In this document: positions 1,321 to 54,046 of the stretch, in pieces | Numbering within the stretch: the first letter of the stretch is position 1 | How the letters are laid out: every line of letters begins with the position of its first letter | Assembly: GCF_043584775.1 (NCBI RefSeq) | Contig: NZ_CP121327.1 | Coordinates: 1,394,400-1,458,399 of the forward strand | Reading direction: 5' to 3' | DNA length: 64,000 bases | Source of the DNA: Hyphobacterium sp. | Lineage (GTDB): Bacteria > Pseudomonadota > Alphaproteobacteria > Caulobacterales > Maricaulaceae | Translations under genes and position numbers: made by a program | The notes under the pieces: generated by a model | What the model was told of the DNA's origin: nothing | Database searches by the model: none | Seen by the model: the letters and a program-made list of their open reading frames with translations, nothing else

Positions 1321-4300
1321 CTAGATCAGCTCGACGCTTTCCACGCCCTTGACCCCGCGCAGCGCGGCCTGAACCGGAGGCGTGGTCGGCACCCGGCCCG
1401 GCAAGCGCAATTCCGCCTCACTGCCATCGGAAACCGAGAGAATAAGGTGGATCACCCCCTCGCCCTTGGCGCTGTCAGCCGCGCGATCCAGGCGGGCTTT
1501 CACGCTTTCCAGCGCGTCGACATTGAGGCGGACCTTCAAGCCTGCGGCAGCGGGCGCATCCTCAAGCGCTTCGATACTGTCGGCAAAAAAGCGCAATTGC
1601 TCTTCCTTGTCGTCAATACTGGCACTGATCATGACGGATGCACCGACTTCCAGCGCGTCGCGCGATGATTGCAACATGTCCGGATTGACCAGAACCTCGA
1701 ATTCGCCCGACGGATCGGAAAGCGTCAGCCAGGCAAAGCGTTTGCCGGTGCGTTGCGAGACCCGCTCCTGACGCCGGCGGACCACGCCGGCCATGCGAAT
1801 CGCAGACGCGCCATCGGCAACACTGTCGGGCGCATCGGCCACGAAGACCACGCCGCGGCGGGCGAGCATGTCGGCCTGATCATCCAGCGGGTGACCGGAC
1901 AGATAATAGCCAATTGCCGCCAATTCCTCGTCGAGCCGCTGCGTCGCCGTCCAGGGCGGCACATCCGGCAATTTCGGGCGGGCCAGCCCACCCGCATCCG
2001 GATCGGCCCCGCCAAAGAGGCTGACCTGAGCGGTATCACGTTCCTCCTGCGCCTTGTTGGCCATGGCGCACAGGGTTTCCGCCGCTGCAAAGGCGCGGGC
2101 ACGATCCGGTTCGATACTGTCGAACGCGCCGGCGCGGGCCAGATTTTCCAACGTCCGCTTGTTCAGGAGCTTGGGATCCACGCGTTCGGCAAAATCAAAC
2201 AAATCCTTGAACGGGCCGTTGGCCTTGCGTTCCTCTGCGAGGGCCTCCATCGCAGACAGGCTGACATTGCGGACCGCGCCGAGCGCATAGACGACCGCGC
2301 CATCTTTCACCGAGAAATCGGCCTCGGACAGGTTGATGTCCGGCGGCAGAATGGGCGTATCCATCCGGCGCGCTTCCTGAAAGAAGACGGCCAGTTTCTC
2401 GACATTGCTGCGATCGAGGCTCATCAAAGCTGCGAGGAATTCAACCGGGTGATTGGCCTTCAGATAGCCGGTCCGGTAGGCGATGGCGGCATAGGCCGCG
2501 ACCCATGGCCCGGCGCAACAGATCCGCTTCGCCAAGGGAATAACCAGACAATTCCTGCGCAATCTGCATCACCTGTTCCTGATAGATGATGACGCCATAG
2601 GTCTCATCCAGAACGGTCTTCAAATCCGGGTGAAGATAATCGACTTCGGCCCGGCCGAACTTCCGGTCGACATAGACATCGATATTCTTCATCGGCCCCG
2701 GACGATAAAGCGAGATCAGGGCGATCAGATCCTCGATCTTGTCCGGCTTCATCTTGGCGAGCGTGTCGCGCATGCCGGAGGATTCCATCTGGAAGACGCC
2801 GATCCCTGCCCCCGTCGACAAAAGCTCATAGACTTTCGGATCATCGAAGGAGGCATTTTCCAGATCGGGAATCTCGCCGCCCGCCTTTTCGATATAACCA
2901 AGCGCGCGCGCAATCACGGTCAGGGTTTTCAGGCCGAGAAAGTCGAATTTCACAAGGCCCGCCGGCTCTACCCATTTCATGTTGAACTGGGTCGCCGGAA
3001 TGTCGGACCGCGGATCGCGATAGAGCGGCACCAGCTCATCCAGGGGACGATCGCCGATCACGACACCAGCGGCGTGGGTGGAGGCATTGCGGTAAAGCCC
3101 TTCGAGCTTCAGCGCGATTTCCAGCAGGCGATCCACACCCGGCTCTTCCTCGCCAAAGGCGCGCAGGCGCGGTTCGATCTCGATGGCTTCGGCCAGGGTT
3201 ACCGGATTTGCGGGATTGGCCGGAACCAGTTTGGCAATCTTGTCGACCAGGCCGAGCGGCAATTGCAGCACCCGCCCGACATCGCGCACGACCGCGCGGG
3301 CCTGAAGCGTTCCGAAGGTGATGATCTGGGCGACGTGATCGGCGCCATAATGCTCCTGCACATAGCGGATGACTTCGCCGCGCCGCTCCTGACAGAAATC
3401 GACGTCGAAATCGGGCATGGAGACGCGTTCGGGGTTCAGAAACCGCTCGAACAGCAGACCAAAGCGCAAGGGATCAAGGTCGGTAATGGTCAGCGCCCAG
3501 GCCACGAGCGAGCCGGCCCCCGACCCCCGGCCCGGCCCTACCGGAATATCATGGTTCTTGGCCCATTTGATGAAATCGGACACGATCAGGAAGTAGCCGG
3601 GAAACCCCATGGAGCCGATGATTTCAAGCTCCAGCTTGAGCCGCGCCTCATAGTCCTCAACCGGAGCCGCCGGATCGACAACGTCCAGACGCGCCTTCAG
3701 GCCGGCCTCTGCCTGCGCCCGCAATTCCTCCAGCTCATCGCGCCCGGCTTCGGTCGGGAAGCTCGGCAGAATGGGATCATGGGTGCGCGGCCGGTAGGAA
3801 CAGCGCCGCGCAATCTCGATCGTGTTGGCAATGGCTTCGGGCAGATCCGAAAACCGGGCCCGCATTTCCTCGCCGGAGGCAAAGAAATGGTCCGGCGTCA
3901 CCCGGCGGCGATCCTCGACGGTGAGATACTGGCTTTCGGCAATGCATAGCAATGCATCGTGCGCGGAATGCATGTCCCGGTCCGGGAAGAAGCACTCATT
4001 GGTCGCCACGAGTGGCAAATCGCGGTCATAGGCCTGCTCCACCAGCCAGTTTTCCGCAATCAGCTCCTCGCGGCGGCCATGCCGCTGAAGCTCGACATAG
4101 AGGCGGTCGCCATAAGCCTCCTGCAATCGCAATAGCCATTTGCCGGCTTCGTCCCTGTGATCGTCCACGACCAGCCGATTGAGCACGCTGTCCGGCCCGC
4201 CGGTCAGCGCGATCAGGCCCTCTGTATGGGTAAACAGTTTTTCTGCGGTGATATGCGCCGGTTCGGTGGGACCAACTTCAAGGAAGGCCGCGCTCGTCAG

Positions 4301-4636
4301 TTTGAGGAGGTTGCGATACCCGGCCTCATTCGCCACGAGCAGCGCAATCGTGCCATCCGGCCGCGCGGCATCTCCGGGACGCGGCTCACCGAGGCGGATC
4401 GAAAGCGTGCAACCGGTAATGGGCTGAATGCCCGCCCCAGAGAGCACTTCTGAAAACTCGAGGGCGCCAAAAAGATTGTTGGTATCGGTGAGACCGATGG
4501 CGGGCATGTTGCCCGCCCCGGCCAGCGCCACCATTTTCTTGATCGGGATGGCGCCTTCAAGCACCGAATAGGGTGAGCGATTGCGGAGATGGACAAAGCC
4601 CTGCCCGGTGTCTCCTGATACGTCGCTCATGCTCAT
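1321..4636 (-). pseudogene. dnaE: DNA polymerase III alpha subunit, split into two overlapping reading frames by an internal deletion plus frameshift near 2497-2500
   Basis: The N-terminal ORF 4636->2441 has the PHP domain start [17 protein letters not shown] and reaches ...[28 protein letters not shown]. The C-terminal ORF 2562->1321 carries ...[29 protein letters not shown]... and the OB-fold region. The two conserved blocks abut in different frames, and the conserved segment normally between them (GYGFNKSH region) is absent. Confidence 0.85.
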
Positions 4637-4683: not shown

Positions 4684-4776
4684 TCAGGCGAGGAGAATGG
4701 ATGTCCACATCAAAATCATCCAGCCAAAGCCCAGAATGGCAGCAGCAGAAGTTGCGTCAGCAAGAAGTCGTCTCAT
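4684..4776 (-). CDS. Candidate 30-aa hydrophobic small protein (not in ORF track)
   Basis: ATG at 4776 is preceded by GGAG with 6-nt spacing (reverse strand ...acGGAGctggttATG). Translation is MRRLLADATSAAAILGFGWMILMWTSILLA followed by a stop, giving one predicted TM helix. It lies in the lolD-dnaE intergenic region. No homology evidence is available to me. Confidence 0.25.
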   Translation of the reverse strand: MRRLLADATSAAAILGFGWMILMWTSILLA

Positions 4777-4866
4777 AACCAGCTCCGTTTCGTTCGTTCT
4801 GGTTATGTTCTTTCATGTTTTGTTCTCATTGCCAAGAAGTTTTTAGTTAACGTCGAAAAGCCGTGA

Positions 4867-9912: not shown

Positions 9913-11583
9913 TCAGGCGGTGAGTACCATAATATCGACCTGGGGCTTTTTACCCCAAAGATAGTTGAGTTCGCGGCGGACACCCCGGCGCACCATTTCC
10001 TCGACTTCCGCTTCATCACAGCGATCACGCCGCTTCATGCGGTCAAAAGCGGCTTCTGCTGTTTCGCCAATCAGATCCAGCCATTGTTCTTCGGATCGCT
10101 CACGGGTTTCCGGAAGGCCCATAGCACGCACATCGGGACCGGAGATCAAGCCGCCCTGCCCGTCAATCACCATGGCAACGGTAATATGCCCGGCATAAGC
10201 CATGGAACGGCGCTCGCGAATGGCCGGGTTTTCAGCCTCGGTCAGCAGATTCCCGTCGACATACAGGCGGCCGGATTTGACCTCGTCCACCACAGAGGCG
10301 CCGTCCTTTGTAATGCGGATCATGTCACCATTACGGCCCGGCAGGGCGTGCGGCACCTGCAGGGATTTCGCGAATTCGGCATGTTCCACCAGATGCCGCC
10401 GCTCGCCATGGACCGGAATGGCAATACGCGGCTTCACCCAGGCATACATCTGGCGCAGCTCGTCGCGGCACGGATGGCCGGAGACATGAACATGCCGGTC
10501 GCGCTCTGTGATTATGTCGACGCCGCGTTCGGCCAGCTGGTTCTGCAGCTCGAAAATGCCGGCCTCATTGCCCGGAATGACCCGCGAGGAGAAAATCACG
10601 GTATCGCCCGTCGTCAAATTGATGGAGCGGTGATCGCCGCGAGCCACGCGGGACAAGGCGGCGCGGGGCTCGCCCTGGCTGCCGGTACAGAGATAGAGAA
10701 TCTTCTCGGCCGGAAAGTGGGCCGCGTCATCCTCATCCACGAAAGGTTTGGCATTCTTCAACATGCCGACGGCCTTGGCCGCTGCTGCCATGCGATGCAT
10801 GGACCGGCCTGCCAGACAGACCCGGCGGTCATTGGCTTCAGCGGCTACGATCGCCGATTCCATGCGCGCGACATTGGAAGCAAAGGAGGCAATCGCGACG
10901 CGGCCTTTCAGCTCGCCAACCAGTTCGATCAGATTTTTGCGAACACCGGCTTCGGACCCGGATTCCCCTTCGGTGAAGACGTTTGTACTGTCGCAGACCA
11001 TCGCCAGCACGCCCTCTTCGGCAAGAGCGGTCAGCGCATTGATGTCGGTGGCTTCCCCGATCTGGGGTTCGGGATCAATCTTCCAGTCACCCGTATGCAG
11101 GATCAGGCCTTCCGGTGTCCGGATGGCGAGGCCATTGGGTTCCGGAATGGAATGGGTCAGCGTGACAAAGCTGATATCGAAGGGATCCAGATTGATGTGT
11201 CCGCCCATCGGCACGACATTGACGATGGCTTCCTTGTGCAGGCCCTTTTCCTTCAACCGGTCGACCATCAGCCATGCGGTAAACGGCGTGGCGTAGATCG
11301 GGCAGCGGAAGCGTTCCCACAGATGGGCGACGGCACCCATATGGTCTTCGTGTGCATGTGTTAGAATGATGGCCAGCAGATCGTGCGCGCGTTCCTCGAT
11401 GAAATCGGGATCCGGCATGATGATATCGACGCCCGGCGTGGTCAGGTCCCCGAAGGTGACGCCGCAATCGACCATAATCCATTTGCGGTTCTCTTCCGGC
11501 CCATAGCCGTAGAGATTGAGGTTCATGCCAATTTCGCCAGACCCGCCGAGCGGCAGGAAGTAAAGCCCGTTATCGTTTGCCAT
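9913..11583 (-). CDS. rnj: Ribonuclease J (metallo-beta-lactamase / beta-CASP family)
   Basis: 556-aa ORF with the HAHEDHMGAV (HxHxDH) motif. The beta-CASP region and length fit RNase J. Confidence 0.9.
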   Translation of the reverse strand: MANDNGLYFLPLGGSGEIGMNLNLYGYGPEENRKWIMVDCGVTFGDLTTPGVDIIMPDPDFIEERAHDLLAIILTHAHEDHMGAVAHLWERFRCPIYATPFTAWLMVDRLKEKGLHKEAIVNVVPMGGHINLDPFDISFVTLTHSIPEPNGLAIRTPEGLILHTGDWKIDPEPQIGEATDINALTALAEEGVLAMVCDSTNVFTEGESGSEAGVRKNLIELVGELKGRVAIASFASNVARMESAIVAAEANDRRVCLAGRSMHRMAAAAKAVGMLKNAKPFVDEDDAAHFPAEKILYLCTGSQGEPRAALSRVARGDHRSINLTTGDTVIFSSRVIPGNEAGIFELQNQLAERGVDIITERDRHVHVSGHPCRDELRQMYAWVKPRIAIPVHGERRHLVEHAEFAKSLQVPHALPGRNGDMIRITKDGASVVDEVKSGRLYVDGNLLTEAENPAIRERRSMAYAGHITVAMVIDGQGGLISGPDVRAMGLPETRERSEEQWLDLIGETAEAAFDRMKRRDRCDEAEVEEMVRRGVRRELNYLWGKKPQVDIMVLTA

Positions 11584-36584: not shown

Positions 36585-36640
<56 letters not shown>

Positions 36641-36759
36641 TGAAACGTCAAAGATTTCAATACAGCGTTCCGACAAAATGGTCGGAAATCGGGGCTCTTT
36701 GCAGTTTCAGACAGGCTTGAGTCGGAACACGGAAAAACGTTTGAACGGCATCGTCCAAT

Positions 36760-37269
36760 CTATTGTTGCCAAGAAAGCCGCTCGTCGCTTCCCGGTGAAA
36801 TGGCCGCAACTTCTAACCGATATCGGATGCCCGGATTTGTGGATTCGATCTCATCCGACAATTCAATGACCCAATTGGTATTCTCCAAGCCCGCTTGTGC
36901 GGCGAAAACACTGAGAACTTGAATCGCCTCGGCCTCGTTCAATGCAACGATCCGTGCATCGACAAATTCACCTTGATCGACGCCAGACTGCATCATCGTT
37001 TCCAGCAATGTGCAGGCTGAAAGACGCGCCTGCATGATGATATCAGTTCCGTGCCCTGCCCATTGTTGGACGCCATAAATACTTGGTGCAAAACAGTTCG
37101 AGCCTTCGCTGCTTAAATAGACGATATCCGGCTCATACTCGGCAGCTGTATTGATCCCTTCTTGCCGAATGATATCGAGCCATCGCTCGTCATCAGCTGC
37201 TGCCTGTGACGGAAATACGACCACCATGCTGGCAACAAGGAACCAACCGACCTTTAAAACCAAACCCAT
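36760..37269 (-). CDS. Hypothetical exported protein
   Basis: The start is taken at MGLVLKVGWFLVASMVVVFPSQAAADD (signal peptide), with GGAG 8 nt upstream of ATG 37269. It lies downstream of the RHH-TM gene. No recognisable domain. Confidence 0.6.
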   Translation of the reverse strand: MGLVLKVGWFLVASMVVVFPSQAAADDERWLDIIRQEGINTAAEYEPDIVYLSSEGSNCFAPSIYGVQQWAGHGTDIIMQARLSACTLLETMMQSGVDQGEFVDARIVALNEAEAIQVLSVFAAQAGLENTNWVIELSDEIESTNPGIRYRLEVAAISPGSDERLSWQQ

Positions 37270-37297
37270 TGCGACGCTCCATTCTGCATCCGTCCGC

Positions 37298-37969
37298 TTA
37301 TTCCTCGGCCGCAACCAGCGCGGGCCTTAAACTAATAGAGATTAATCCCGCGTCTTCGCTGCCAGTGTCCAACCTCGACAATGACCCAATTCTTGCCCGC
37401 ATCACCTGATCGAAAATCACACGCCGTTCGCTGCTCTCTTCGTCAACCAAGATGAATTGAACTGTGTAGACGAGATGCTCTCCTTCGGGGGCTTCAATGG
37501 CCGACACTGTTACCCAAAGAGCGGCATCTTCCGTATATGAAGCATCAACAAGCCCCGTTCCGAAAACGGCTTCTAACGCTGGACGAAACCGAGTGAAGCG
37601 GATGCCATTCTGCTCACCGAAATCATGGCGAATACGAGCATCCATCATGGCGCGGTTTTGTGTATCAGAGACCGCGGCGACCATCACACTGATATCAGTT
37701 TCCAATTGGGTGGCGGAAGCCTGTTGTGTTGAGTTTGAGCCGAACGCCATGAACAGAAGGGCAATCCCGACTATCATGCCTAAACCGTAGAATGGGGCAC
37801 GAGAACGCTGACGTGCGTTAATGCTGGGAGAAAGATATCCATCAATCAGTTCTCGAACGACCGCACTGGTGGACTTTCCTTCGCGCGTTGCTGCCCGCGC
37901 CAATTCCGATTTCTTGCTGGGCGAGATGCGTATTTCAACGCCTTCTGTCTTCTTATCGTCTTCGCTCAT
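37298..37969 (-). CDS. Membrane-anchored ribbon-helix-helix (CopG/MobC-like) protein with a periplasmic C-terminal domain
   Basis: The start is taken at MSEDDKKTEGVEIRISPSKKSELARAATREGKSTSAVVRELIDGYL (beta-strand plus two helices, typical RHH). A TM helix APFYGLGMIVGIALLFMAFG follows, then an unassigned domain of about 140 aa. It has the same architecture as 50828-51490. Confidence 0.6.
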   Translation of the reverse strand: MSEDDKKTEGVEIRISPSKKSELARAATREGKSTSAVVRELIDGYLSPSINARQRSRAPFYGLGMIVGIALLFMAFGSNSTQQASATQLETDISVMVAAVSDTQNRAMMDARIRHDFGEQNGIRFTRFRPALEAVFGTGLVDASYTEDAALWVTVSAIEAPEGEHLVYTVQFILVDEESSERRVIFDQVMRARIGSLSRLDTGSEDAGLISISLRPALVAAEE

Positions 37970-38194
37970 GGCCGCCCCTAAGGAATCAAAATCAGTGACT
38001 GATTGAAAACTCGTGGAAGATATCGACCTCATGCAAGGAAAACCGTGTCCCGACATTACAGGTCTGAACTAAATGCGGCCTTTAGCCGTGCCGCCAGCTA
38101 AGCCTCAGTCTCATGACTTCCGTGAATAATTCGAGGACAAGCTCAAGGAAGCCATGCGGACAGCTGACGCGAGATTGTTGAATGGATGATCGTG

Positions 38195-39118
38195 CTAGTT
38201 GACCGATTTGATCGGCATTCTTGACGAGACATTGTCTATCGCGGCATTCGCTATAGCATCTTGTAGACACTGGAATGCGGGTGCCTGCTGAAAAACGTGG
38301 TTTCTTCCAACGACGGCGACAATGGTCTCGCCGTCGGCAATCAAAGAAGATATTCGCCGGAACATGGCGACATTGCGGATATTGGACTCAACGCGGTTCG
38401 CTTCATTTATTAGGCGCCCGCCAGTTTGGCTGCCGTCCAGCATCGGATTGAACCAATCCCCCGGAATCTGACTGAATTCAAGGCCCGGCCAAACATCTTG
38501 GAAGTGTTCTTGATATTCGTCGAATGCCGCAATGGGCATAGGCCAACCCCACGCCTCGCCACGACTTTGCAGGCTTGAAATATACCGATCTGACCGTTCG
38601 GTCAGCTGTGTTCCATTAATTCTTTGTCGAACCCAACCGCGCACCCGTCGCGTGATCAAATACATCTGATAATCAAGGGCTGAAATCTTGTTCAATACCT
38701 CCGCCCAAAGATCGGGCTCGCTTGGTTCCAATGTTCCCGTCGGAATGCCGAGCGAACTTGCCAATGATTGAGTATAACCCGGCTCAAAATACCGCTGCAC
38801 GGCTTCTCTCAAGTTCGCGGTGTTCGGCCATGAATAGCCTTCGTGCAAAACGATATCTGGCTGGTCGTCTTCAATAGCGGATTGTATGGCGATCAATTGC
38901 GGGTCGTCAGGATCATTCGTATGTGCCGCACCAATGTAAATTAGTTCGGCGCCGTTGCTGAACGACAGGTTTAGCTCAGAATCTACAAAGTCGACTTCGT
39001 CTTCGCGCAATAATGCGACACGGTCTGCGCATGTTTCAATGATTGCGGCGATCTGTTGCGATTGAGATTCGAAGTCCGGCGGTGCGGCTAAAGCAAGTAA
39101 TGCCAGTGCAAAATTCAA
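38195..39118 (-). CDS. Exported protein, Tiki/TraB/GumN/ChaN-superfamily-like
   Basis: 307-aa ORF. It has two GxxH-type motifs (LIYIGAAHTND ... IVAVVGRNHV) with an intervening DIVLHEG, the pattern I associate with the TraB/Tiki/erythromycin-esterase superfamily. The N-terminus is short and hydrophobic. Confidence 0.4.
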   Translation of the reverse strand: MNFALALLALAAPPDFESQSQQIAAIIETCADRVALLREDEVDFVDSELNLSFSNGAELIYIGAAHTNDPDDPQLIAIQSAIEDDQPDIVLHEGYSWPNTANLREAVQRYFEPGYTQSLASSLGIPTGTLEPSEPDLWAEVLNKISALDYQMYLITRRVRGWVRQRINGTQLTERSDRYISSLQSRGEAWGWPMPIAAFDEYQEHFQDVWPGLEFSQIPGDWFNPMLDGSQTGGRLINEANRVESNIRNVAMFRRISSLIADGETIVAVVGRNHVFQQAPAFQCLQDAIANAAIDNVSSRMPIKSVN

Positions 39119-39190
39119 AGCATCCTCCGCTTGCCAAACAAAGCGCGGAAAGTCTCTATTGCTACCCCTTGGGACATGAAGCGCATATAA

Positions 39191-39925
39191 TTATGGCCTT
39201 TCCCAATCACACGAGCCCGCATCATCAACACCGCCACCGTGGACAAACTGGTTCCTTCTTCCGGTCGCCGCAAAGATGCGTTCTTCCCGTTCAGCTTCCC
39301 ATGGTGAGACCGGATCGTTTGCAGACCATTCTACAAACATGTCCCACTCATCGTCTGGAATGCGAACGCCGTGGGTGTCGTGCATGTAGAACCAAACGCG
39401 TGCGACATCGCCTCGATGGCACGGCGGCGGTTCAAACCTGCCTCGGTCGTCTTCAATCTGGCAGGAACCGTAATCGCTCGTTTCGTCTGGAAGGTCAGCG
39501 TAACGATCATTGCTGCGGTGTTGGTTCACCTGACCGATAGACGGAGCAAGATTATGAAGGTCGAAGATCATGGCCTGAGCGTTGGCATTCTCTTGTTCAC
39601 AACGACCGCGACTTCCATCCGGTCCGGCCCAGCACGCCCATTGCCTCGCCGGCATCAGTGAAGCTGGGACAATGTGCTCCCATTCAACTCGTTGAGCACG
39701 AGATGAAGCATTGTTTCCACTATCGTATCCGCAGGCATCAAGATCATCGATGGAACCTGATCCATCATTGTCTTCGTGGGATGTATATGAGCATCCGCAA
39801 TAGAACGTCGAACGATGTTCGGCCGTGTAGATGACATCGTCGGCTTCGTTCTTCGTGTCAGCCCAGTCTTGAGCAAACGCGCTGAATGGAAGCAGCAGAA
39901 GAAACAGAGCTAGGGACCGGATCAT
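39191..39925 (-). CDS. endA: Extracellular/periplasmic endonuclease I (EndA/Vvn family)
   Basis: Signal peptide MIRSLALFLLLLPFSAFAQD. Family motifs are present: TFYCGC, VEWEHIVPAS, DLHNLAPSIGQVNQHRSN, RGDVARVWFYM and REERIFAATGRRNQFV. Confidence 0.9.
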   Translation of the reverse strand: MIRSLALFLLLLPFSAFAQDWADTKNEADDVIYTAEHRSTFYCGCSYTSHEDNDGSGSIDDLDACGYDSGNNASSRAQRVEWEHIVPASLMPARQWACWAGPDGSRGRCEQENANAQAMIFDLHNLAPSIGQVNQHRSNDRYADLPDETSDYGSCQIEDDRGRFEPPPCHRGDVARVWFYMHDTHGVRIPDDEWDMFVEWSANDPVSPWEAEREERIFAATGRRNQFVHGGGVDDAGSCDWERP

Positions 39926-39977
39926 GAGCTCGTGATAACCGTGCCGATTGGGGAATATGGCAGTGTCATTGAAACCT

Positions 39978-41327
39978 TCACTCCGCAGACATCAGTATAT
40001 CAGGACGACGAATGAGCCGATCGGGAAGCTGAATGTCGACGCGATACCGGCCCGGCGGAAGAAGAAGCTGAACCTGATCCGCTGCTTCGCCTTCTTGTAA
40101 CGCATACTGGTCGGTCGCGATTGCGTTTACCACCATAGGCAAACGAAACGCTTGAACCACTGCCGGCCGATCCGAAACATCTGAAACATCAACCCAAGCC
40201 GATCGCCGATCTGGCAACTCCCACAACCATCGGGGTCGGCGATCATTTTCTCTAGCACCCTCGGTCGGGGTAAACACTACAAGGTCTGCCTGCCAACGGT
40301 CAGGCGGCGGCGCCAATGCTTGGTCATTTTGGTCTATCAGCACGCTTGGCTCGCTGAACTCGAAGCGATCTGAAATTAGTCTGGCGGACTGTGCAATACT
40401 GGTGGTCCCGATCCCGGCGCCGCTAACTTGATCTATCGTTAAAGGGTCATATCCAGTTAATTCCGAAAGCGCTGCCGCCATCCAGCCATTCTGATAACCA
40501 TCCGCAGATCGACCGGGCGTTTCGTCGAGGTGCGCAAGTCCTACATACAAGACAACACGCGCATCCGGATTTTGAGCAAAGACACGTTCAAAGATATTTT
40601 GGGCTTGGACGGTTTCGCGATGATTTATCCGAGCCTCGCGAGAGCAAGATTGAGTCGAACAGTCGAGTCTTTGATCGCTGCGCACCTCATATGGAAACCA
40701 CACAAATTGTTCGGCCACTGCGGTTTCGAGCAAATGGGCCATCATGGGGTCGCCAAAATAGAATCCCATTTCCCGAACAGGCACGCCGTTTTGATTCCAT
40801 GCCGTTTCGGAAATTTGCGAGAGTGCTTCCATGCCAAAATGCGTGAAGCCCTCGGCTCTAAGGATCGGCAGCAATTCTGCCATAAATGCTCGATGACGCC
40901 CCATTTGGTGGGATTCATTGACGATCACGACCTGCCTGCCTCGAACGGCTTCCTGAATGTATTCGATGGCGTTTGCTGCACGATAGCCTTCAAGCGCCTC
41001 TGGGGTGACCCATACTTCGTCGTCGGCTGAAATCTCCCGGTTTTCCGAAAACATTTCTGGGGCGATGATGAAATACGCCTCGTCATACCGGCCAGTGAAA
41101 TTCAAAAGCTGCGCTTCGCCATCTCTGAGAAATTGCTCTGCGAAATCGTCCGGCAATCCGTCGGGCAATACTTCTGACTGAATTGCAGCTGCGTATTCAC
41201 CTTGTGCAGCATAGCTCGTCCAAGGACGAGCAACGGCCTCTCCTTCATCTTGTGCTGACGTCAATCCGCCACCAAAGACGGTGAGCACAGCGACAAAAAT
41301 ATGCTTCATTGAAAACAATTGATGCAT
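39978..41327 (-). CDS. Exported protein with a ChaN-like (haem-binding/Tiki superfamily) domain
   Basis: A signal peptide is present (possible start at MKHIFVAVLTVFGGGLTSAQ, 41309). VVIVNESHQMGRHRAFMAELLPILRAEGFTHFGMEAL and VVLYVGLAHLDE match the ChaN/Cofac_haem_bdg pattern as I recall it. Confidence 0.45.
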   Translation of the reverse strand: MHQLFSMKHIFVAVLTVFGGGLTSAQDEGEAVARPWTSYAAQGEYAAAIQSEVLPDGLPDDFAEQFLRDGEAQLLNFTGRYDEAYFIIAPEMFSENREISADDEVWVTPEALEGYRAANAIEYIQEAVRGRQVVIVNESHQMGRHRAFMAELLPILRAEGFTHFGMEALSQISETAWNQNGVPVREMGFYFGDPMMAHLLETAVAEQFVWFPYEVRSDQRLDCSTQSCSREARINHRETVQAQNIFERVFAQNPDARVVLYVGLAHLDETPGRSADGYQNGWMAAALSELTGYDPLTIDQVSGAGIGTTSIAQSARLISDRFEFSEPSVLIDQNDQALAPPPDRWQADLVVFTPTEGARENDRRPRWLWELPDRRSAWVDVSDVSDRPAVVQAFRLPMVVNAIATDQYALQEGEAADQVQLLLPPGRYRVDIQLPDRLIRRPDILMSAE

Positions 41328-41477
41328 GGAACCCTCTCCCCATTCCGTCCAGCCTCGATTCTCTGCGGAGGTGAAATCGTCAGCTAGTAAACAACTACAG
41401 CCAAATTAACTGCGACCAAAGGTGGTGGGGATGTTAGAGTCGCCGATGGCAAAAATAAGGCGCCCAAATAGACCAAG

Positions 41478-41576
41478 CCCTATTGAGGCTTTGCAGGCGG
41501 TCTTAATCTGGCGTCACTAGAATTGCATCATCCCTATTGAAGCCTGTGCCGCACAATGTCCTGACCCTATTGAGGC
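41478..41576 (+). repeat. Three direct copies of the 12-mer CCCTATTGA(G/A)GC in the AT-rich intergenic region upstream of the DUF3644-like gene
   Basis: Copies lie at 41478-41489, 41532-41543 (one mismatch) and 41565-41576. The last copy ends 67 nt before the ATG at 41643. Confidence 0.8.
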
Positions 41577-41642
41577 CTACTCGCTGGCGTAAAATTCTAG
41601 AATCCTTACTATCGCCGAAGTTGATAGGCGAATGGGATTAAA

Positions 41643-42830
41643 ATGGCAAAGCCACGCGCGACCCTTGAACGAGCAGAAATTGCTATCGTGAAGGCGATGG
41701 TGAAAACCAAGAAGTATAATGATCAGCAAATTCTTGCGTTTTTCACCCGACCAACTCGCTCCATCAATCATCGCGTTATCGGTGAAATTCGCAGTAATAC
41801 GAAGTATGCCAATATCAAAGCTGCGTCAGAGTCACAGTTGGATCAGTTTCTTGATCGATGGCCGGACGTTGATCCAGAAACCGGATTAAGTAATAGCGGC
41901 GATGAACTGTTGATCAAAGCTCGTGAGGCGATGATAGCGGCTGTCCATATATTCAACGGTGCTGGGCTCACGTTCCGCTCAGAACTGTTCATCGTGACCG
42001 CAGTGATTGCATGGACCTACCTCTGCCATTCTTGGTTCAATAAGCACGGTATTGATTATCGCCATCGCGATACCAAAGGAAACGTCGTTAAGACCGCGGA
42101 AGGCGCCGAAAAGTACTGGGAGCTAAGCCAGTGTTTGAAACATGGTGACCTACCTATTTCCGAGGGCGGCAAGATAAATCTCCGGTTTCTGTTGGAACTT
42201 CGACATGAAATCGAACACCGTTCAACCTCGGCCATCGACGACAGCGTTGGAGCCCAATTGCAGGCTTGCTGCATCAATTTCAATAACTTCATCCGTGAAG
42301 AGTTTGGCAGACAATTCGGCTTGGAAAAGCGACTTCCCATCGCGCTCCAGTTCGTGACTTTTGATAACCGACAGCGTGCTGAACTGATATCGGCTGATCT
42401 ACCAGCCAATATATCGTCAATGTTGGAAACCTTTCGGAACAAGCTGACGCAGGAACAATTTGCTGATCTTGACTATGCCTACAGAGTGATTTTCGTACCC
42501 AAAATCGCCAACAGCAAAAGCAAAGCCGATGTTGCCGTTGAATTCGTTAAAGCGGACTCGCAAGAGGCAATCGATGCAAATGCTGTCTTCTTGAAAGAAA
42601 CCGACAAGAAGAGATATTTACCGTCAGCTGTTGTGAAACTGATGCAAGACGAAGGTTATTCGAAATTCAAAATGCATGACCACACCGAACTTTGGCAGTC
42701 GCTTGATGCAAGAAACCCGGCAAAAGCATTTGGAACACAAGGTGACTACAAAGGCTCTTGGGTTTGGTACGAGAATTGGGTTGAGCGGGTTCGTGCCCAT
42801 TGTGAAGAAAACGCCGAGCAATATCGATGA
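41643..42830 (+). CDS. DUF3644-like hypothetical protein (AT-rich orphan)
   Basis: 395-aa ORF. The segment ELLIKAREAMIAAVHIFNGAGLTFRSELFIVTAVIAWTYLCHSW resembles the DUF3644 core as I remember it. This is the most AT-rich gene in the island. Confidence 0.4.
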   Translation: MAKPRATLERAEIAIVKAMVKTKKYNDQQILAFFTRPTRSINHRVIGEIRSNTKYANIKAASESQLDQFLDRWPDVDPETGLSNSGDELLIKAREAMIAAVHIFNGAGLTFRSELFIVTAVIAWTYLCHSWFNKHGIDYRHRDTKGNVVKTAEGAEKYWELSQCLKHGDLPISEGGKINLRFLLELRHEIEHRSTSAIDDSVGAQLQACCINFNNFIREEFGRQFGLEKRLPIALQFVTFDNRQRAELISADLPANISSMLETFRNKLTQEQFADLDYAYRVIFVPKIANSKSKADVAVEFVKADSQEAIDANAVFLKETDKKRYLPSAVVKLMQDEGYSKFKMHDHTELWQSLDARNPAKAFGTQGDYKGSWVWYENWVERVRAHCEENAEQYR

Positions 42831-42897
42831 AAACGGATATCCTGCACCGCATTTAGTTGCAGAAATTCATTGGGCGCCCCATCTGCAATTTCCCAGC

Positions 42898-43534
42898 ATG
42901 ATGGAGCCCCACCATAATCATCGGATACGCACGAACATCGACATCTGACCAAACCGCAGGCCTCGAAGCCCAGATCACAGAACTGACCAAAGCTGGCGCC
43001 GATCGCATCTTTCAGGAACAGGTTTCCAGCGTCACCAAGCGGGACGAACTGGAAGCGGCCCTTGATTATCTTCGTGATGACGACGTGCTTATGGTCACCA
43101 AACTTGATCGTCTTGCCCGGTCTGTTTCTGACCTTATGAGGGTCATCGAACGTATCAAAAACCGAAACGCATCATTGCGTATTCTTGCCATGAATTTGGA
43201 TACTGAATCTGCCACCGGGAAGCTGATGATCTCGATCCTTGGATCAGTGGCTGAATTCGAAAGAGAGATCATGCTGGAACGTCAGCGTGAAGGCATTTCA
43301 AAAGCCAAGGCCGCCGGAAAATACAAAGGTCGTGCCCCAACCGCCCGACATAAGGCTGAACAGGTTTTGGGTTTGATTGGAAAGGGTTGGAAGCAGGCGG
43401 ATGTTGCAGTCGAATTGGGGATATCTCGGTCCAGCGTTCAGCGGATCGTCCGCAATGATATAGAAAACGGCCGTGAAGATGACCGCGGCGGTGGCCTCAC
43501 TCTTCCGGGAGTCGCGAACTATGGGAATAAATGA
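42898..43534 (+). pseudogene. Serine recombinase (resolvase/invertase family) with a frameshift at its extreme 5' end
   Basis: The frame open from 42902 encodes ..PTIIIGYARTSTSDQTAGLEAQITELTKAGADRIFQEQVSS...DVLMVTKLDRLARS...AEFEREIMLERQREGI and a C-terminal HTH (LGISRSSVQRIV). This frame has no start codon. ATGATG at 42898-42903 is in the adjacent frame, and removing one C from the C4 run at 42907-42910 would give MMEPTIIIGYARTSTSDQ. The ORF track starts only at the internal GTG 43085, which would lack the catalytic Ser. Confidence 0.75.
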
Positions 43535-44024
43535 TCATTCGGCGATCCGCTTCGATTTCTCTCACATACAGCGACACAACAAGTCGAAATACGTCTTCAT
43601 CTCCCGCAGGCGATAACCGGCTGCCGCCAATCTGTATGACCAGAATATATCCGCCTTCAAGATAGAGAGCCGATGGTGGGCTGAATTGGACGTCATACCT
43701 CCCGCCGCCTTCGCACAAGCTTTCGAACCAAGCTGTGTTTCCGCCTAGCTGCCTTGCACTGTCCGTCGGAAAGCCAACGATCCATGCGTCATTGTTGACC
43801 ACCTGTTCAAACAACACCGCATCACATTCGTTCAGTGCCAGTTGATACGTGTTCAGGAGACCCAAGGCTCCGGGAATATTCGATTCGATGAATGCGGCGG
43901 TCTGACTATCCGGGTCTGGGAGTGATTGAGAAAAAACAGGAGCCGAGACAACGGCATTGCCCAGCATGACCAATATCGTTGGCAAACTAAGCCTTAACAT
44001 CAATGCGGAGCTTAATTCGGACAT
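43497..44024 (-). CDS. Hypothetical exported protein (possible NTF2/SnoaL-like fold)
   Basis: 175-aa ORF with an N-terminal hydrophobic signal-like segment (LSLPTILVMLGNAVVSAPVFSQ). Its 3' end overlaps the recombinase 3' end convergently by 38 nt. The fold guess rests only on size and pattern. Confidence 0.5.
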   Translation of the reverse strand: MSELSSALMLRLSLPTILVMLGNAVVSAPVFSQSLPDPDSQTAAFIESNIPGALGLLNTYQLALNECDAVLFEQVVNNDAWIVGFPTDSARQLGGNTAWFESLCEGGGRYDVQFSPPSALYLEGGYILVIQIGGSRLSPAGDEDVFRLVVSLYVREIEADRRMIIYSHSSRLPEE

Positions 44025-44968
44025 TGGGGCGCATCAGGCCCTGTGTAGGCTTCGGCGATTGTGGCAAGTCCTACACTAATTCGCCGATCATCAATGTGAT
44101 CAGGGTCTTCGTATTCGAGGATATTGATCTCGCCGTCTTGGCATCGCCAATGTGTTCCATAGCGCTGAGGCTGATCATTGTTGAGCAAAATCCGGTCAAC
44201 CAATCGTGCCAACAATCTCGGCTGGGCCCGTCCTTCTGCGACTTCATTCTCCAACATGGGAAGAAATGCTTCTTGTCGTTCTAGACTTCCATGTTGAAGA
44301 ATTAGCCATGCCGCATCAATTGCTGCATTCGGAGCCTCATCCAAAGCCGGCCAACCGTGTTCTTCAACAAACGCGTCCAAATACACGCCATTGGATTCGT
44401 CTGCCTCACACCATCGAAACGCTACCGCTTGCCAAATGTATTGAAACAACTCCGGGTTCTCTTCGACGAATTGAGGCTGATCTTGGCGTCGAACTCGCCG
44501 CCACCATTGATCAGACTCCAACCGCATAACCAATTCCCGATAAATATTACTCTCGGCAATATCCGCAACGGCTTCTTCTTGTGCCTGTAACAAGCGAAGG
44601 TCTTGCTCCATCATCCAACCTCTGCCCTGTTCCAACAGCGGTCGATAGTCAGCTAGTTCCTGATTACGTGTCGCCAGTATTCCACCCGCCGAAAAGCCTC
44701 TTGCGATACACGGCAACACACCTGACGGGATGGGGTCTCCGGGTTGATATCCCGCCTCTCTCGCCGGCGCTCGAAAACTGGCCCAAAGTTCAGCACTCGA
44801 TGAAACAACCTCTGGGTTTTGCATGGCTAGAATGTATGGGGACCAATCTGCCAAGACGGGATCGATCTGTCTGGATTCAATCCCGTTCAATAGTGCCAAA
44901 GCATCTTCAACATTGTCGGCCCAAGCAGTGCCAGAAATAAAAAGAATCCAGATGATCAAAATACGCAT
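44012..44968 (-). CDS. Exported protein, member 1 of a three-member island paralog family (possibly DUF6624-like)
   Basis: Signal peptide MRILIIWILFISGTAWA. The C-terminal block HGWPALDEAPNAAIDAAWLILQHGSLERQEAFLPML...LVDRILLNNDQPQRYGTHWRC...IDDRRISVGLATIAEAY aligns with 47891-48556 and 49916-50689. Confidence 0.6.
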   Translation of the reverse strand: MRILIIWILFISGTAWADNVEDALALLNGIESRQIDPVLADWSPYILAMQNPEVVSSSAELWASFRAPAREAGYQPGDPIPSGVLPCIARGFSAGGILATRNQELADYRPLLEQGRGWMMEQDLRLLQAQEEAVADIAESNIYRELVMRLESDQWWRRVRRQDQPQFVEENPELFQYIWQAVAFRWCEADESNGVYLDAFVEEHGWPALDEAPNAAIDAAWLILQHGSLERQEAFLPMLENEVAEGRAQPRLLARLVDRILLNNDQPQRYGTHWRCQDGEINILEYEDPDHIDDRRISVGLATIAEAYTGPDAPQCPN

Positions 44969-45194
44969 CGCGTGCCCCTGAGATATTGGCTCTGCGCGTA
45001 TTCAAAACCCGCCGCCCCCATAATTCAACTCGAAATTTAATTGAGTTGGTTCCGATGCGGGTTGCAACGTGCAGGTGGTTTCAGCCACGTTGTTTTGCAT
45101 GAAAGGTCGATACGTTCGGCGCGCTGACCTGCGCCCATAGTGGCCTCGTATATATTGCGAATCTGACCAGTGAAGCTGCGGTGTTTTTGACTCT

Positions 45195-45647
45195 CTATCT
45201 AAGCGCAGAGAGATGGCTGTGCTGGATGAGCATTGTTCCGGTATCATCTGGCGCAATGATCAACGTTACGCGCAAATTGTTTGGTGTGAGTTGACCTTCT
45301 GTGGAGATCATGTCGCCTAAGAAAACAGCCGCAATCGTGTGAACTTGGTTAAACGCCCAATGACGGTTGATTGTGACTTCGAAATTGAATGTCGTGCCGT
45401 TCTCGCAGAACGAACGAAACTGATTGATTGCTCCGGCTTTGTCAGCGCTTAGTTGGCCATGAACTCCAAAGCCAGCCCACTCTTCTGACGTAATTTCATC
45501 TAGCAACTCAGCGCTACATTGCTCGAAAACCTGTTCAAACTGGGCAAGCCACTCAAGTGCGGATGATCTGTCGCTCGGCTCCTGTGCGCTGGCAGCAGAA
45601 GCAATGCTCAAACAAACCGCGAGTTTCAGCATCTGCATCCTAGGCAT
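45195..45647 (-). CDS. Hypothetical exported protein (possible NTF2/SnoaL-like fold)
   Basis: Signal peptide MPRMQMLKLAVCLSIASAASAQ. 150 aa. It overlaps the upstream small membrane ORF by 8 nt. Confidence 0.5.
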   Translation of the reverse strand: MPRMQMLKLAVCLSIASAASAQEPSDRSSALEWLAQFEQVFEQCSAELLDEITSEEWAGFGVHGQLSADKAGAINQFRSFCENGTTFNFEVTINRHWAFNQVHTIAAVFLGDMISTEGQLTPNNLRVTLIIAPDDTGTMLIQHSHLSALR

Positions 45648-45870
45648 TGCGATCCATCTTCGTTGTGCTTTCGGCGGCCTGCCAGATTGTCATGGCAGTA
45701 ATAACTAATGCCACAACCAGCATTGAAAACGCAGCAGCGGCCCAGCCTGCAACAATCTCCCCTGTAGCAAGCCAACTGAATGCGGTCATAGTCAAAAAAG
45801 CCAATGCAAGCATCCAAAAGATAATGGCAGAAAAACGCAATCCACCGATCATTTTTATGATAGCCCTCAT
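45640..45870 (-). CDS. Small 2-TM membrane protein
   Basis: 76-aa ORF MRAIIKMIGGLRFSAIIFWMLALAFLTMTAFSWLATGEIVAGWAAAAFSMLVVALVITAMTIW. It is translationally coupled to 45195-45647. Confidence 0.45.
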   Translation of the reverse strand: MRAIIKMIGGLRFSAIIFWMLALAFLTMTAFSWLATGEIVAGWAAAAFSMLVVALVITAMTIWQAAESTTKMDRNA

Positions 45871-46063
45871 GCATACTCCAATGCTGTCGTATGTGGCACC
45901 GACCTACACGAGTGACAGCTTAAGTTTGAAGCGCCCCACCCTGCAAGCAGTGGTGTGGTCATGATAGCTGCGCCTAGGCAATTTCCTTTTACCCCCTCTG
46001 CTCGATGGTGGGAGTTGATATTTACAATTCGGACAAGGTCGAATTCGGGAAGCCAAATTCCAA

Positions 46064-46609
46064 TTAGCTAATCGCTCGATATAACGTCGACCGGGACACC
46101 CCCAACTGATCCGCAATCGACTGCATCGAGTGACCACCAGAAGATTTCAACTTCTTGGCCATCTGAATCTGATTGTCGGTCAATGCAACGGGACGCCCCA
46201 ACCGTATTCCTTTTGCCTTCGCATTTGCCAGACCGGAACGAGTGCGTTCACCGATTAGTGCCCGCTCATATTCAGCCAGCGCCCCAAATACATGGAACAC
46301 CAACCTTCCCCCAGCAGTAGTCGTGTTGATATCTTCTGTGAGTGAAATGAAACCGACATTCTGATCACCCAGATGATCCACGGTTTCAATCAGTTGTCGG
46401 AGGGAGCGCGCAAGCCGGTCCATTTTCCAGACCACCAGCACATCACCTTCACGGAGGTATTTCAGGGCTTCTAGAAGCTTCGGCCGATCACGCTGGGCAC
46501 CTGATGCAGATTCTTCGAAGATCATCTGACAGCCTGCTTCTTTCAAAGCGGCAATCTGCATCTCGTTTGATTGATCTTCGGTGCTTACCCGGGCGTAACC
46601 GACCTTCAT
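46064..46609 (-). CDS. Small serine recombinase (resolvase / Hin-Gin-type DNA invertase family), apparently intact
   Basis: The start is taken at MKVGYARVSTEDQSNEMQIAALKEAGCQMIFEESASGAQRDRPKLLEALKYLREGDVLVVWKMDRLARS. It continues GALAEYERALIGERTRSGL and ends with the HTH IADQLGVSRSTLYRAIS. About 181 aa. Confidence 0.9.
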   Translation of the reverse strand: MKVGYARVSTEDQSNEMQIAALKEAGCQMIFEESASGAQRDRPKLLEALKYLREGDVLVVWKMDRLARSLRQLIETVDHLGDQNVGFISLTEDINTTTAGGRLVFHVFGALAEYERALIGERTRSGLANAKAKGIRLGRPVALTDNQIQMAKKLKSSGGHSMQSIADQLGVSRSTLYRAIS

Positions 46610-46617
46610 GAATTCTC

Positions 46618-46683
46618 CTGTGCCAAAAACGGCTTCTGCAAATGGTGACACAGTTTGGAATTTCAAGAGGGTTTTTGACACAG
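46618..46683. promoter_or_regulatory. Candidate recombinase-binding (res/hix-like) or operator region immediately upstream of the serine recombinase
   Basis: A 13-bp inverted repeat CTGTGCCAAAAAC (46618-46630) / GTTTTTGACACAG (46671-46683) matches at 12 of 13 positions and has a 40-bp spacer. An extra direct TGACACAG lies at 46646-46653. The region starts 9 nt from the recombinase ATG. The half-site resembles the Hin hix half-site TTATCAAAAACC as I recall it. Confidence 0.4.
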
Positions 46684-46897
46684 CGAATGGATTGATATCC
46701 GATCCCCCGGTGGTCACTAGATGGTCGTGTCAGTTACGGTCGTTTTTGGGCCGCCGGTTTTTTGTGTCCAAATGGATTTTCACATTCGAACTTGCCGCAA
46801 CTGATATTGATTCACATCAATTTTGTGAAAATGCTTCTCATTCTTTCAAGTATTTCCGTTTTTCGCCGATTTATTTGAAAAATCGCCCTGCTCTCGT

Positions 46898-46927
46898 TTG
46901 ACGCTCCTGTCTTTGCGGGCCTAACAT
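46898..46927 (+). promoter_or_regulatory. Possible sigma70-type promoter for the Tat-repeat peptide gene
   Basis: TTGACG (46898-46903), then 18 nt, then TAACAT (46922-46927), about 60 nt upstream of the ATG at 46989. Pattern match only. Confidence 0.3.
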
Positions 46928-46988
46928 CCGCTTGCGAGGTATTCGGCCTTCGGGCTGACAGGCAAAAAAATCAGGGAGGCCCACTCAC

Positions 46989-47327
46989 ATGGCCAAAAAA
47001 GGTAAACTCAGCCGTCGTTCTTTTCTAACTCGCGTTGCTGGAACGACGCTAGCGGCAGGCGCCGCAGCTAGCATTACAGGTGTTGCTCTCGCTCAGAACA
47101 GAACCGGACGGACCGATTCCGACACCGGCAACAGTGCCGACCGCGCTGGTTATGGTAGAACCGGCGTTACCGACAGCGATACCGGCGGCAATTCTGACCG
47201 TGCCGGCTATGGCCGGGGAAGTTCTGTGGATCGTACCGGCTCAGGGCGCAACTGCTCGGACAGCGACTCAGGCAGCTATGCTGACCGTGCCGGCTATGGC
47301 CGTCGCTGCAACGATTCCGATCGCTAA
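46989..47327 (+). CDS. Tat-signal small secreted protein with Asp/Ser/Gly repeats
   Basis: GGGAGG lies 9 nt upstream of the ATG. The twin-arginine signal is MAKKGKLSRRSFLTRVAGTTLAAGAAASITGVALA. The mature part of about 77 aa contains three copies of [TC]DSD[TS]G-x2-3-DRAGYGR plus a degenerate copy, and two Cys residues. Confidence 0.7.
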   Translation: MAKKGKLSRRSFLTRVAGTTLAAGAAASITGVALAQNRTGRTDSDTGNSADRAGYGRTGVTDSDTGGNSDRAGYGRGSSVDRTGSGRNCSDSDSGSYADRAGYGRRCNDSDR

Positions 47328-47397
47328 TTTTTCTGGTCTCGGCGGCTAGTCCTCCGAACCAATCTTGTAGAGAAACCGGTCGTTTTTGACCAAGTGA

Positions 47398-47829: not shown

Positions 47830-47890
47830 GATCAGCTCAACCCTCGGCCGGGCAAGGCCATGAATTCAAGACTGCCGGGAACCCGTAATT

Positions 47891-49885: not shown

Positions 49886-49915
49886 AGTCCTCCCCTTAAC
49901 GCATTCGAGCAATCA

Positions 49916-53963: not shown

Positions 53964-54046
<83 letters not shown>

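What the first reader, a model, noticed from the sequence alone, without database searches (positions are those of the whole stretch)
2441..2562. Essential dnaE is broken: conserved fingers segment missing and frame shifted
On the reverse strand the sequence reads ...GAAGCGGATCTGTTGCGCCGGGCCATGGGTCGCGGCCTATGCCGCCATCGCCTACCGG.... That encodes [10 protein letters not shown] and then, in a different frame, [22 protein letters not shown]. In E. coli DnaE (from memory) about 45-50 residues lie between these blocks: ...[63 protein letters not shown].... Here that block is absent and the two halves are out of frame (ORFs 4636->2441 and 2562->1321). A truncated Pol III alpha should be lethal. This is therefore an assembly or consensus error, a recent lesion compensated by a second dnaE/dnaE2 elsewhere, or a deliberately or naturally deleted allele.
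Basis: partly seen in the sequence, partly recalled or inferred. Interest (0 to 1): 0.7.

Follow-up and report, generated by a model that had tools for sequence, protein, structure and literature searches.

The report
143-bp gap breaking dnaE in deposit
The gene for the main DNA-copying enzyme of this Hyphobacterium genome really is missing 143 bases and split in two in the public record, but the evidence points to an assembly defect or a very recent dead-end lesion, not new biology.

Summary
On the minus strand, dnaE is split into an N-terminal ORF (4636->2441) and a C-terminal ORF (2562->1321). Exactly 143 nt are absent at the 2501|2500 junction compared with every relative examined. That is 47 codons plus 2 nt: KKxK...GYGFNKSH, E. 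coli DnaE residues 714-760.

The lesion was not planted. RefSeq proteins of the source genome (Hyphobacterium sp., a 2,955,266-bp contig) are exactly these two fragments: WP_394694684.1 (729 aa) and WP_394694683.1 (404 aa).

The missing piece has a constant length in 143 of 143 homologues. It includes the histidine that lines the nascent-base-pair pocket.

Both halves show strong purifying selection (dN/dS 0.02-0.04 at dS 0.4-0.55) and no decay. The lesion is therefore evolutionarily instantaneous.

A 4-nt block substitution sits about 50 nt from the junction, at sites invariant in the relatives. It turns a conserved I/V into E. The junction has no microhomology. All other genes checked in the window are intact. 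Two sister assemblies carry technical-looking breaks elsewhere in dnaE.

The most likely cause is a local assembly or consensus error (about 0.65). A genuine recent deletion in the sequenced DNA is the main rival (about 0.27). A functional shortened or split polymerase is very unlikely. Interest is low.

The parts
2501..4636 (-). dnaE N-terminal homologous part: codons 1-712 of the 731-aa ORF, ending ...[10 protein letters not shown]. The RefSeq start is the ATG at 4630. Contains PHP, the NTPase/palm domain and most of the fingers domain.
2500..2501 (-). Deletion junction. 143 nt present in all relatives are absent here: codons for KKxKxEM...[11 protein letters not shown] plus the first 2 nt of the next Ala codon. 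There is no microhomology longer than about 1 nt.
2441..2500 (-). Out-of-frame read-through tail of the N ORF ([19 protein letters not shown] plus the stop TGA at 2443-2441). It has no homology to DnaE or to any intein.
1321..2499 (-). dnaE C-terminal homologous part in the +1 frame ([21 protein letters not shown]...VELI plus stop). It holds the end of the fingers domain, HHH_6 and the OB fold. It is 98.7% identical in protein to the intact relative P0193.
2500..2562 (-). Fortuitously open upstream extension of the C frame: 21 non-homologous codons that overlap the end of the N part. RefSeq starts its 404-aa CDS at the TTG at 2535. The GenBank-type call starts at the ATG at 2424. No Shine-Dalgarno sequence sits at a usable distance.
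2551..2554 (-). 4-nt block substitution, GAAT where all 10 relatives read ATCC. It changes QILSGY to QELSGY. It is the only run of adjacent window-unique changes at otherwise invariant sites in the whole gene, and it lies 50-53 nt from the junction.

Best explanation
The window carries the single replicative-polymerase gene dnaE of a Hyphobacterium (Maricaulaceae, Alphaproteobacteria). The deposited sequence has a local defect: 143 nt were lost from the fingers-domain coding region, and a 4-nt garbled block sits about 50 nt upstream.

I judge this most likely to be an error made when the 2.96-Mb single-contig assembly was built or polished. Possible sources are a mis-trimmed contig-end or circularisation join, a mis-resolved low-coverage spot, or a bad polishing step. 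The living organism would then have an intact 1150-aa DnaE.

What is shown:
- the exact lesion;
- its presence in the public record;
- its uniqueness to that record;
- the absence of any evolutionary decay.

What is inferred:
- that the cause is technical;
- which technical step produced it.
For: 1. The lesion is in the deposit itself. RefSeq WP_394694684.1 (729 aa) ends with the same frameshifted tail. WP_394694683.1 (404 aa) is the C fragment. They sit between RpsB (..682) and LolD (..685) on a 2,955,266-bp contig.

2. The missing piece cannot be dispensable.
- 143 of 143 homologues have the same 41-residue spacing between RRAMG and GFNKSH, and 144 of 145 read GFNKSH-AAA-Y.
- The top 90 homologues are about 1093-1170 aa long; a few shorter fragments appear further down the list.
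- The histidine of GFNKSH equals M. tuberculosis DnaE1 His787 by gapless alignment. That residue is one of three that contact nargenicin in the nascent-base-pair site (PMC8922275).

3. There is no decay. Against CCMP332, dN/dS is 0.042, 0.025 and 0.018 for the two N segments and the C part, at dS 0.40-0.55. Only 23 substitutions occur in 1103 aligned residues compared with the intact relative P0193, and there are none between residues 338 and 692.

4. There is a local error signature. The only contiguous window-unique change at sites invariant in 10 relatives is ATCC->GAAT at 2554-2551, 50-53 nt from the junction. It gives I->E at a position that is I/V/T/L in 140 of 141 homologues. The junction has no microhomology.

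5. Everything else checked is clean.
- Comparison with CCMP332 over window 1-14.6 kb and 54-62 kb shows no net frameshift in any other gene.
- 8 of 10 other proteins tested are exact full-length RefSeq entries of normal length.

6. Sister deposits show that dnaE breaks of technical appearance are common.
- CP058669 has dnaE as 467 + 639 aa, caused by 17 small indels within about 165 nt. The same species' DnaE is intact in a JGI assembly (P0193).
- Another NCBI contig has 445-aa and 72-aa pieces.

7. No other assembly carries the junction. This holds for 80 genome loci, 3 metagenome contigs and the protein hits.
Against: - No reads, coverage or assembly method were available, so the technical origin is not demonstrated.
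- A clean 143-nt loss is not the usual long-read error, which is a 1-2-nt indel. The rest of the window shows no sign of low consensus quality.
- If the assembly was built from accurate long reads at good depth, a consensus deletion would normally reflect real molecules.
- The block substitution plus deletion could also be one real complex mutational event, for example error-prone break repair.
Confidence: 0.65

Rival explanations
1. The deletion is genuine and very recent, and is present in the DNA that was sequenced. It would be a null allele of dnaE, possibly arising as one complex event together with the 4-nt block. It could have been captured from a minority or non-viable subpopulation, or be carried in a cell that still has an intact copy (merodiploid or multi-copy chromosome, or a duplicated segment not resolved by the assembler).
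For: - The lesion is a clean single event in an otherwise good-looking assembly.
- Blunt, microhomology-free deletions with nearby mutations can arise from end-joining repair (inference from general knowledge).
- dN/dS shows only that the event is very recent. It does not show that the event is unreal.
Against: - dnaE is the sole replicative polymerase gene in bacteria that rely on DnaE alone (PMC8922275 states this for mycobacterial DnaE1). Extending it to alphaproteobacteria is general knowledge, not tested here. A null allele could not become the consensus of a growing population.
- No second close full-length DnaE from the 2,955,266-bp contig appears among the best hits or in the members of the five nearest 90% clusters.
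- No second copy and no displaced 143-nt segment exist in the window.
Confidence: 0.27
2. The shortened or split gene is functional. Either a +1 ribosomal frameshift in the 122-nt overlap fuses the halves into a 1103-aa enzyme lacking 47 residues, or the two polypeptides work together as a two-piece polymerase, as in cyanobacterial split DnaE.
For: - Both frames are open across 2441-2562, so a frameshift is formally possible.
- The break lies close to the place where cyanobacterial DnaE is naturally split (...FAEY|CFNKSH). This is from my own knowledge and was not tested here.
Against: - The overlap has no XXXYYYZ slippery heptamer and no homopolymer of 4 nt or more. No Shine-Dalgarno sequence sits at a usable distance from the C-fragment starts; the only AGGA ends 17 nt before the TTG at 2535.
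- Pfam finds no intein or Hint domain in either fragment. The N tail is 19 out-of-frame residues.
- Either product would lack an invariant, constant-length segment that includes the active-site His.
- No relative shares the arrangement.
Confidence: 0.03
3. This is an old pseudogene, with replication taken over by another polymerase encoded elsewhere in the genome.
For: None beyond the broken frame.
Against: - The C-terminal 392 codons downstream of the frameshift have dN/dS 0.018 and no stop codon.
- The N part is equally constrained.
- Synteny is fully conserved: rpsB-dnaE-(small ORF)-lolD-lolC-proS.
Confidence: 0.02

Closest known systems
Essential genes fragmented by sequence errors in deposited assemblies. 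The example found here is dnaE of Hyphobacterium sp. CCMP332, CP058669.1, annotated as WP_255466970.1 (467 aa) and WP_255466971.1 (639 aa).
   Same: - The same gene in a sister species is annotated as two separate proteins rather than as a pseudogene.
- The flanks are under strong constraint.
- An independent assembly of the same species (P0193) is intact.
   Different: In CCMP332 the break is a roughly 165-nt patch with 17 small indels and many mismatches. Here it is one clean 143-nt loss plus one 4-nt block substitution.
Bacterial DNA polymerase III alpha subunit (DnaE; C-family polymerase; structures 2HNH/5FKU, 2HPI/3E0D, 7PU7)
   Same: - All domains are present in the canonical order: PHP, palm/NTPase, fingers, HhH, OB.
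- Outside the gap the protein is 97-99% identical to an intact Hyphobacterium DnaE.
   Different: - It lacks the residues equal to E. coli 714-760, including GYGFNKSH.
- The reading frame is broken.
- It has I->E at a conserved hydrophobic site.
Naturally split DnaE of cyanobacteria (dnaE-n / dnaE-c joined by a split intein). Recalled from my own knowledge, not from a tool.
   Same: - There are two ORFs for one polymerase.
- The natural split point (AEY|CFNKSH) falls inside the segment that is missing here.
   Different: - The cyanobacterial halves are at distant loci, and each carries an intein half.
- No extein residue is lost in the cyanobacterial case.
- Here the halves abut and overlap, there is no intein, and 47 residues are gone.

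Membership tests
DnaE (Pol III alpha, replicative) | PHP, Pol III alpha NTPase/palm, HhH and OB-fold domains in canonical order, with top similarity to DnaE1-type proteins | tested here: met
   - Pfam: PF02811, PF07733 and PF17657 in the N ORF; PF14579 and PF01336 in the C ORF.
- PDB hits 2hnh/5fku at E about 1e-183.
- All best homologues are named DNA polymerase III subunit alpha.
DnaE (Pol III alpha, replicative) | Complete fingers domain including RRAMG-(41 aa)-GFNKSH | tested here: not met
   - The finger profile is matched only over positions 1-145 of 166.
- 47 residues are absent.
- The spacing is invariant in 143 of 143 homologues.
DnaE (Pol III alpha, replicative) | One continuous reading frame of about 1150 codons | tested here: not met
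   - The two ORFs are in different frames.
- RefSeq lists two proteins of 729 and 404 aa.
Assembly/consensus artefact | The lesion is absent from raw reads or from independent sequencing of the same organism | not testable with these tools
   - No reads are available.
- The source genome is not in the gene-position index.
- No same-species contig turned up in the metagenome scans.
Assembly/consensus artefact | No evolutionary footprint: both sides remain under purifying selection, and the lesion is private to one record | tested here: met
   - dN/dS is 0.018-0.042 on both sides.
- Every other assembly examined has the 143 nt.
Assembly/consensus artefact | Additional local sequence anomalies next to the breakpoint | tested here: met
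   A 4-nt block, ATCC->GAAT, lies 50-53 nt from the junction. It is the only contiguous unique change in 3.3 kb and produces I->E at a conserved site.
Split-intein DnaE | Intein N-half at the end of the N fragment and C-half at the start of the C fragment, with all extein residues retained | tested here: not met
   - There is no Hint or intein domain.
- The tail is 19 out-of-frame residues.
- 47 extein residues are missing.
Programmed ribosomal frameshift gene | Slippery site or stimulatory element in the overlap, conserved in relatives | tested here: not met
   - There is no XXXYYYZ heptamer and no homopolymer of 4 nt or more in 2441-2575.
- Relatives have a single frame.
Decayed pseudogene | Relaxed selection and accumulation of further stops or indels downstream of the first lesion | tested here: not met
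   The C part has 392 codons with no stop, dN/dS 0.018, and 98.7% protein identity to P0193.

The most novel reading that the evidence does not exclude
The 143-nt deletion is real and fixed in a living Hyphobacterium lineage. That lineage would replicate either with a second, divergent C-family polymerase encoded elsewhere in its 2.96-Mb chromosome, or by keeping intact and deleted dnaE alleles side by side on multiple chromosome copies. This would be a free-living alphaproteobacterium caught just after losing its canonical Pol III alpha.
Probability: 0.03. Interest if true: 0.75.

Novelty: not a real feature. Interest (0 to 1): 0.1.

Why it matters
The main value is quality control.
- A RefSeq 'complete' Hyphobacterium genome carries a broken essential gene. 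It is annotated as two ordinary proteins, one of them under a misleading name ('OB-fold nucleic acid binding domain-containing protein').
- These fragments have entered UniRef and cluster databases.
- The closest sister genome, CP058669, has a different break in the same gene.

If reads showed instead that the deletion is real in a growing population, it would challenge the assumption that DnaE is indispensable in alphaproteobacteria. Nothing found here supports that.

Tried and rejected
1. Looking up the source contig to read the public DNA. The exact-product look-ups for the 731-aa and 729-aa N fragments, RpsB and RNase J all returned 'not on record'. The source was identified through cluster membership instead.

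2. Searching for same-species contigs in metagenomes.
- A 35-mer shared with CCMP332 gave nothing.
- A 32-mer in the conserved small ORF upstream of dnaE gave three contigs.
- All three are only about 81% identical and all have the 143 nt. This gave no population information.

3. Looking for the missing segment displaced elsewhere in the window, or a second dnaE in the window. Only chance matches of 14 nt or less appeared, and no further DnaE-like hit.

4. Direct repeats or microhomology at the junction that could explain slippage or a repeat collapse. None were seen.

5. Treating the 4-nt block as a small inversion. This needs extra mismatches and was rejected by inspection.

6. Frameshift rescue. 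There is no slippery site.

7. Intein or split-gene reading. There is no intein domain.

8. A planted or in-silico edit of the window. This is rejected because the RefSeq proteins match both fragments exactly.

9. A genome-wide search for dnaE2/imuC or other polymerases in the source genome. This is not possible with the tools, because only the 64-kb window is available.

Full report
**What is in the sequence**

There are two long minus-strand ORFs: 4636->2441 (731 aa) and 2562->1321 (413 aa).
- The first ORF carries the PHP domain, the Pol III alpha NTPase/palm domain and positions 1-145 of the 166-position finger profile.
- The second carries the helix-hairpin-helix and OB-fold domains.

Against solved structures, the N ORF aligns to E. 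coli Pol III alpha residues 5-715 and the C ORF to residues 762-1157. The gene is therefore dnaE, cut inside the fingers domain.

**Size and position of the lesion**

I compared the DNA with eight Maricaulaceae orthologues. I also compared it with the closest sequenced genome, Hyphobacterium sp. CCMP332 (CP058669.1, about 90% nt identity). Both comparisons show one gap of exactly 143 nt in the window.
- tblastn with an intact relative (P0193, 1150 aa) places residues 1-711 on 4630->2498 and residues 759-1150 on 2499->1324.
- Codon by codon, the Gly of RRAMG is GGT at 2503-2501. The next base (2500) is the third base of the first Ala codon of AAAY.
- What is lost is 47 codons (KKxKxEMxxQ...[11 protein letters not shown]) plus 2 nt, which puts the downstream part in the +1 frame.
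- The breakpoints share no microhomology beyond about 1 nt.
- By a gapless alignment, the missing residues equal E. coli 714-760 and M. tuberculosis DnaE1 741-787.

**The lesion is in the public record**

Exact-sequence look-ups show that most window proteins are RefSeq entries of a 'Hyphobacterium sp.' (taxid 2004662, an unclassified-species bin) on a 2,955,266-bp contig. Four consecutive accessions cover the locus:

| Accession | Product |
|---|---|
| WP_394694682.1 | RpsB |
| WP_394694683.1 | 404-aa protein equal to window 2535->1321, named 'OB-fold nucleic acid binding domain-containing protein' |
| WP_394694684.1 | 729-aa 'DNA polymerase III subunit alpha' ending ...[24 protein letters not shown], the window's N ORF with its frameshifted tail |
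| WP_394694685.1 | LolD |

The window therefore reproduces the deposit, and the annotation treats the two halves as ordinary genes.

**Can the segment be dispensable?**

No.
- The top 90 homologues are about 1093-1170 aa long; a few shorter fragments appear further down the list of 120.
- In the 143 sequences in hand that contain both motifs, the spacing between RRAMG and GFNKSH is always 41 residues. GFNKSH-AAA-Y is found in 144 of 145.
- The His of GFNKSH is M. tuberculosis DnaE1 His787.
- In the cryo-EM structure 7PU7, that His is one of only three residues that contact nargenicin. [quoted passage not shown]

A product lacking this segment, whether made as two pieces or fused by a frameshift, would lack part of the active-site wall.

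**Age of the lesion**

Against CCMP332, synonymous divergence is 0.40-0.55. dN/dS is 0.042 (codons 13-460), 0.025 (the 196 codons before the junction) and 0.018 (the 392 codons after it).

Compared with the intact relative P0193 there are only 23 amino-acid differences in 1103 aligned positions, and none between residues 338 and 692. The part downstream of the frameshift is at least as constrained as the part upstream. The break has left no evolutionary trace, so it is either extremely recent or not biological.

**A second anomaly next to the break**

I looked for positions where all 10 relatives agree and only the window differs. There are 12 such positions in 3.3 kb.
- Eight are scattered single changes.
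- Four are adjacent: ATCC->GAAT at 2554-2551, 50-53 nt from the junction.

This block changes QILSGY to QELSGY. The position is I, V, T or L in 140 of 141 homologues, and E only in this genome's own entry. Four adjacent unique changes this close to the junction are very unlikely to be independent of it. The lesion is therefore either one complex event or a patch of locally bad sequence.

**Quality of the surrounding sequence**

- Over window 1-14.6 kb and 54-62 kb, alignment with CCMP332 shows only compensated or in-frame gaps in the other genes: rpsB, lolD, lolC, proS, RNase J, coaX, birA, nuoN, pheA, lon, clpX, clpP and tig.
- The 14-gene nuo operon reads through without breaks.
- Eight of ten other proteins tested are exact, normal-length RefSeq entries.
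- dnaE is therefore the only broken gene seen in the window.

**What sister assemblies show**

- CCMP332's dnaE is also annotated in two pieces (467 + 639 aa), but the break is about 600-760 nt upstream of this one. It is a roughly 165-nt patch with 17 small indels and many mismatches.
- A JGI assembly of the same species is intact (P0193).
- Another NCBI contig of that species has 445-aa and 72-aa pieces.

Technical breaks in this long gene are evidently common in deposited Hyphobacterium assemblies.

**Alternatives examined**

- Second copy: the window has no second dnaE and no displaced copy of the missing 143 nt.
- Second close copy in the source genome: no full-length DnaE from the 2,955,266-bp contig appears among the best hits or in the five neighbouring 90% clusters. 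This argues against a second close copy. A divergent paralogue cannot be excluded.
- Frameshift rescue: the overlap 2441-2562 contains no slippery heptamer and no homopolymer run. No Shine-Dalgarno sequence is usefully placed for the C fragment.
- Intein: there is no intein domain.
- Population data: metagenome scans found no contig of the same species. The three related contigs they did find are intact.

**Verdict**

The best explanation is a local assembly or consensus defect in an otherwise good single-contig genome (about 0.65). Candidates are a mis-trimmed contig end or circularisation join, or a mis-polished low-coverage spot. This is an inference; no reads could be examined.

The main rival is a real, very recent null deletion present in the sequenced DNA (about 0.27). 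A functional shortened or split polymerase (about 0.03) and an old pseudogene (about 0.02) are contradicted by conservation, motif content and the selection signature.

Biological interest is low. The practical point is that two mis-annotated DnaE fragments from this genome, and two more from CP058669, are circulating in protein databases.

Noticed in passing
window 4684-4776 (-), with box at 4796-4810 (-): A 30-aa hydrophobic ORF (MRRLLADATSAAAILGFGWMILMWTSILLA) lies between lolD and dnaE. It is preceded by GAACATAACCAGAAC, a GAAC-N7-GAAC box of the alphaproteobacterial LexA type (recalled from my own knowledge). The ORF and the box are conserved in position in CCMP332 and three other Maricaulaceae loci. 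The peptide exists as 'hypothetical protein' in several assemblies. It looks like a SidA-type SOS-induced division inhibitor; SidA is described as a 29-aa SOS-induced inner-membrane protein in PMC4211646. On its own, the box count in the window is no more than chance (2 found against 2.1 expected)..
   Followed up: partly
window about 36585-54046: A low-GC island (0.50-0.53 against 0.60) of about 17.4 kb sits at tRNA-Asp. Window 36585-36641 is a perfect direct repeat of the 3' part of tRNA-Asp (53970-54046, minus strand). The cargo comprises a serine recombinase/resolvase (46064-46717), Endonuclease I (39191-39925), DUF3644, three DUF6624 paralogues, an esterase, an IS3-type transposase (52320-53528) and several proteins with no family. 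CCMP332 has different cargo, including an IS240-type element, at the same site..
   Followed up: partly
L081 about 11330-11565 (CP058669.1 about 876.0-876.3 kb): The closest public genome, Hyphobacterium sp. CCMP332, has its own break in dnaE: a roughly 165-nt patch with 17 small indels (net +8 nt) and many mismatches. This splits the gene into WP_255466970.1 (467 aa) and WP_255466971.1 (639 aa). An intact version of the same protein (P0193) exists in a JGI assembly, so this is probably also a consensus error..
   Followed up: partly
window 1321-2535 (-): RefSeq names the C-terminal DnaE fragment 'OB-fold nucleic acid binding domain-containing protein', and UniRef names it 'helix-hairpin-helix domain-containing protein'. 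Neither fragment is flagged as a pseudogene. This mis-annotation has propagated to UniRef..
   Followed up: yes
protein hit P0064: A Maricaulaceae-type DnaE (71% identical to the query) is labelled 'Synechococcus moorigangaii CMS01' in NCBI. This probably reflects contamination of a cyanobacterial culture assembly by an associated heterotroph.
   Followed up: no
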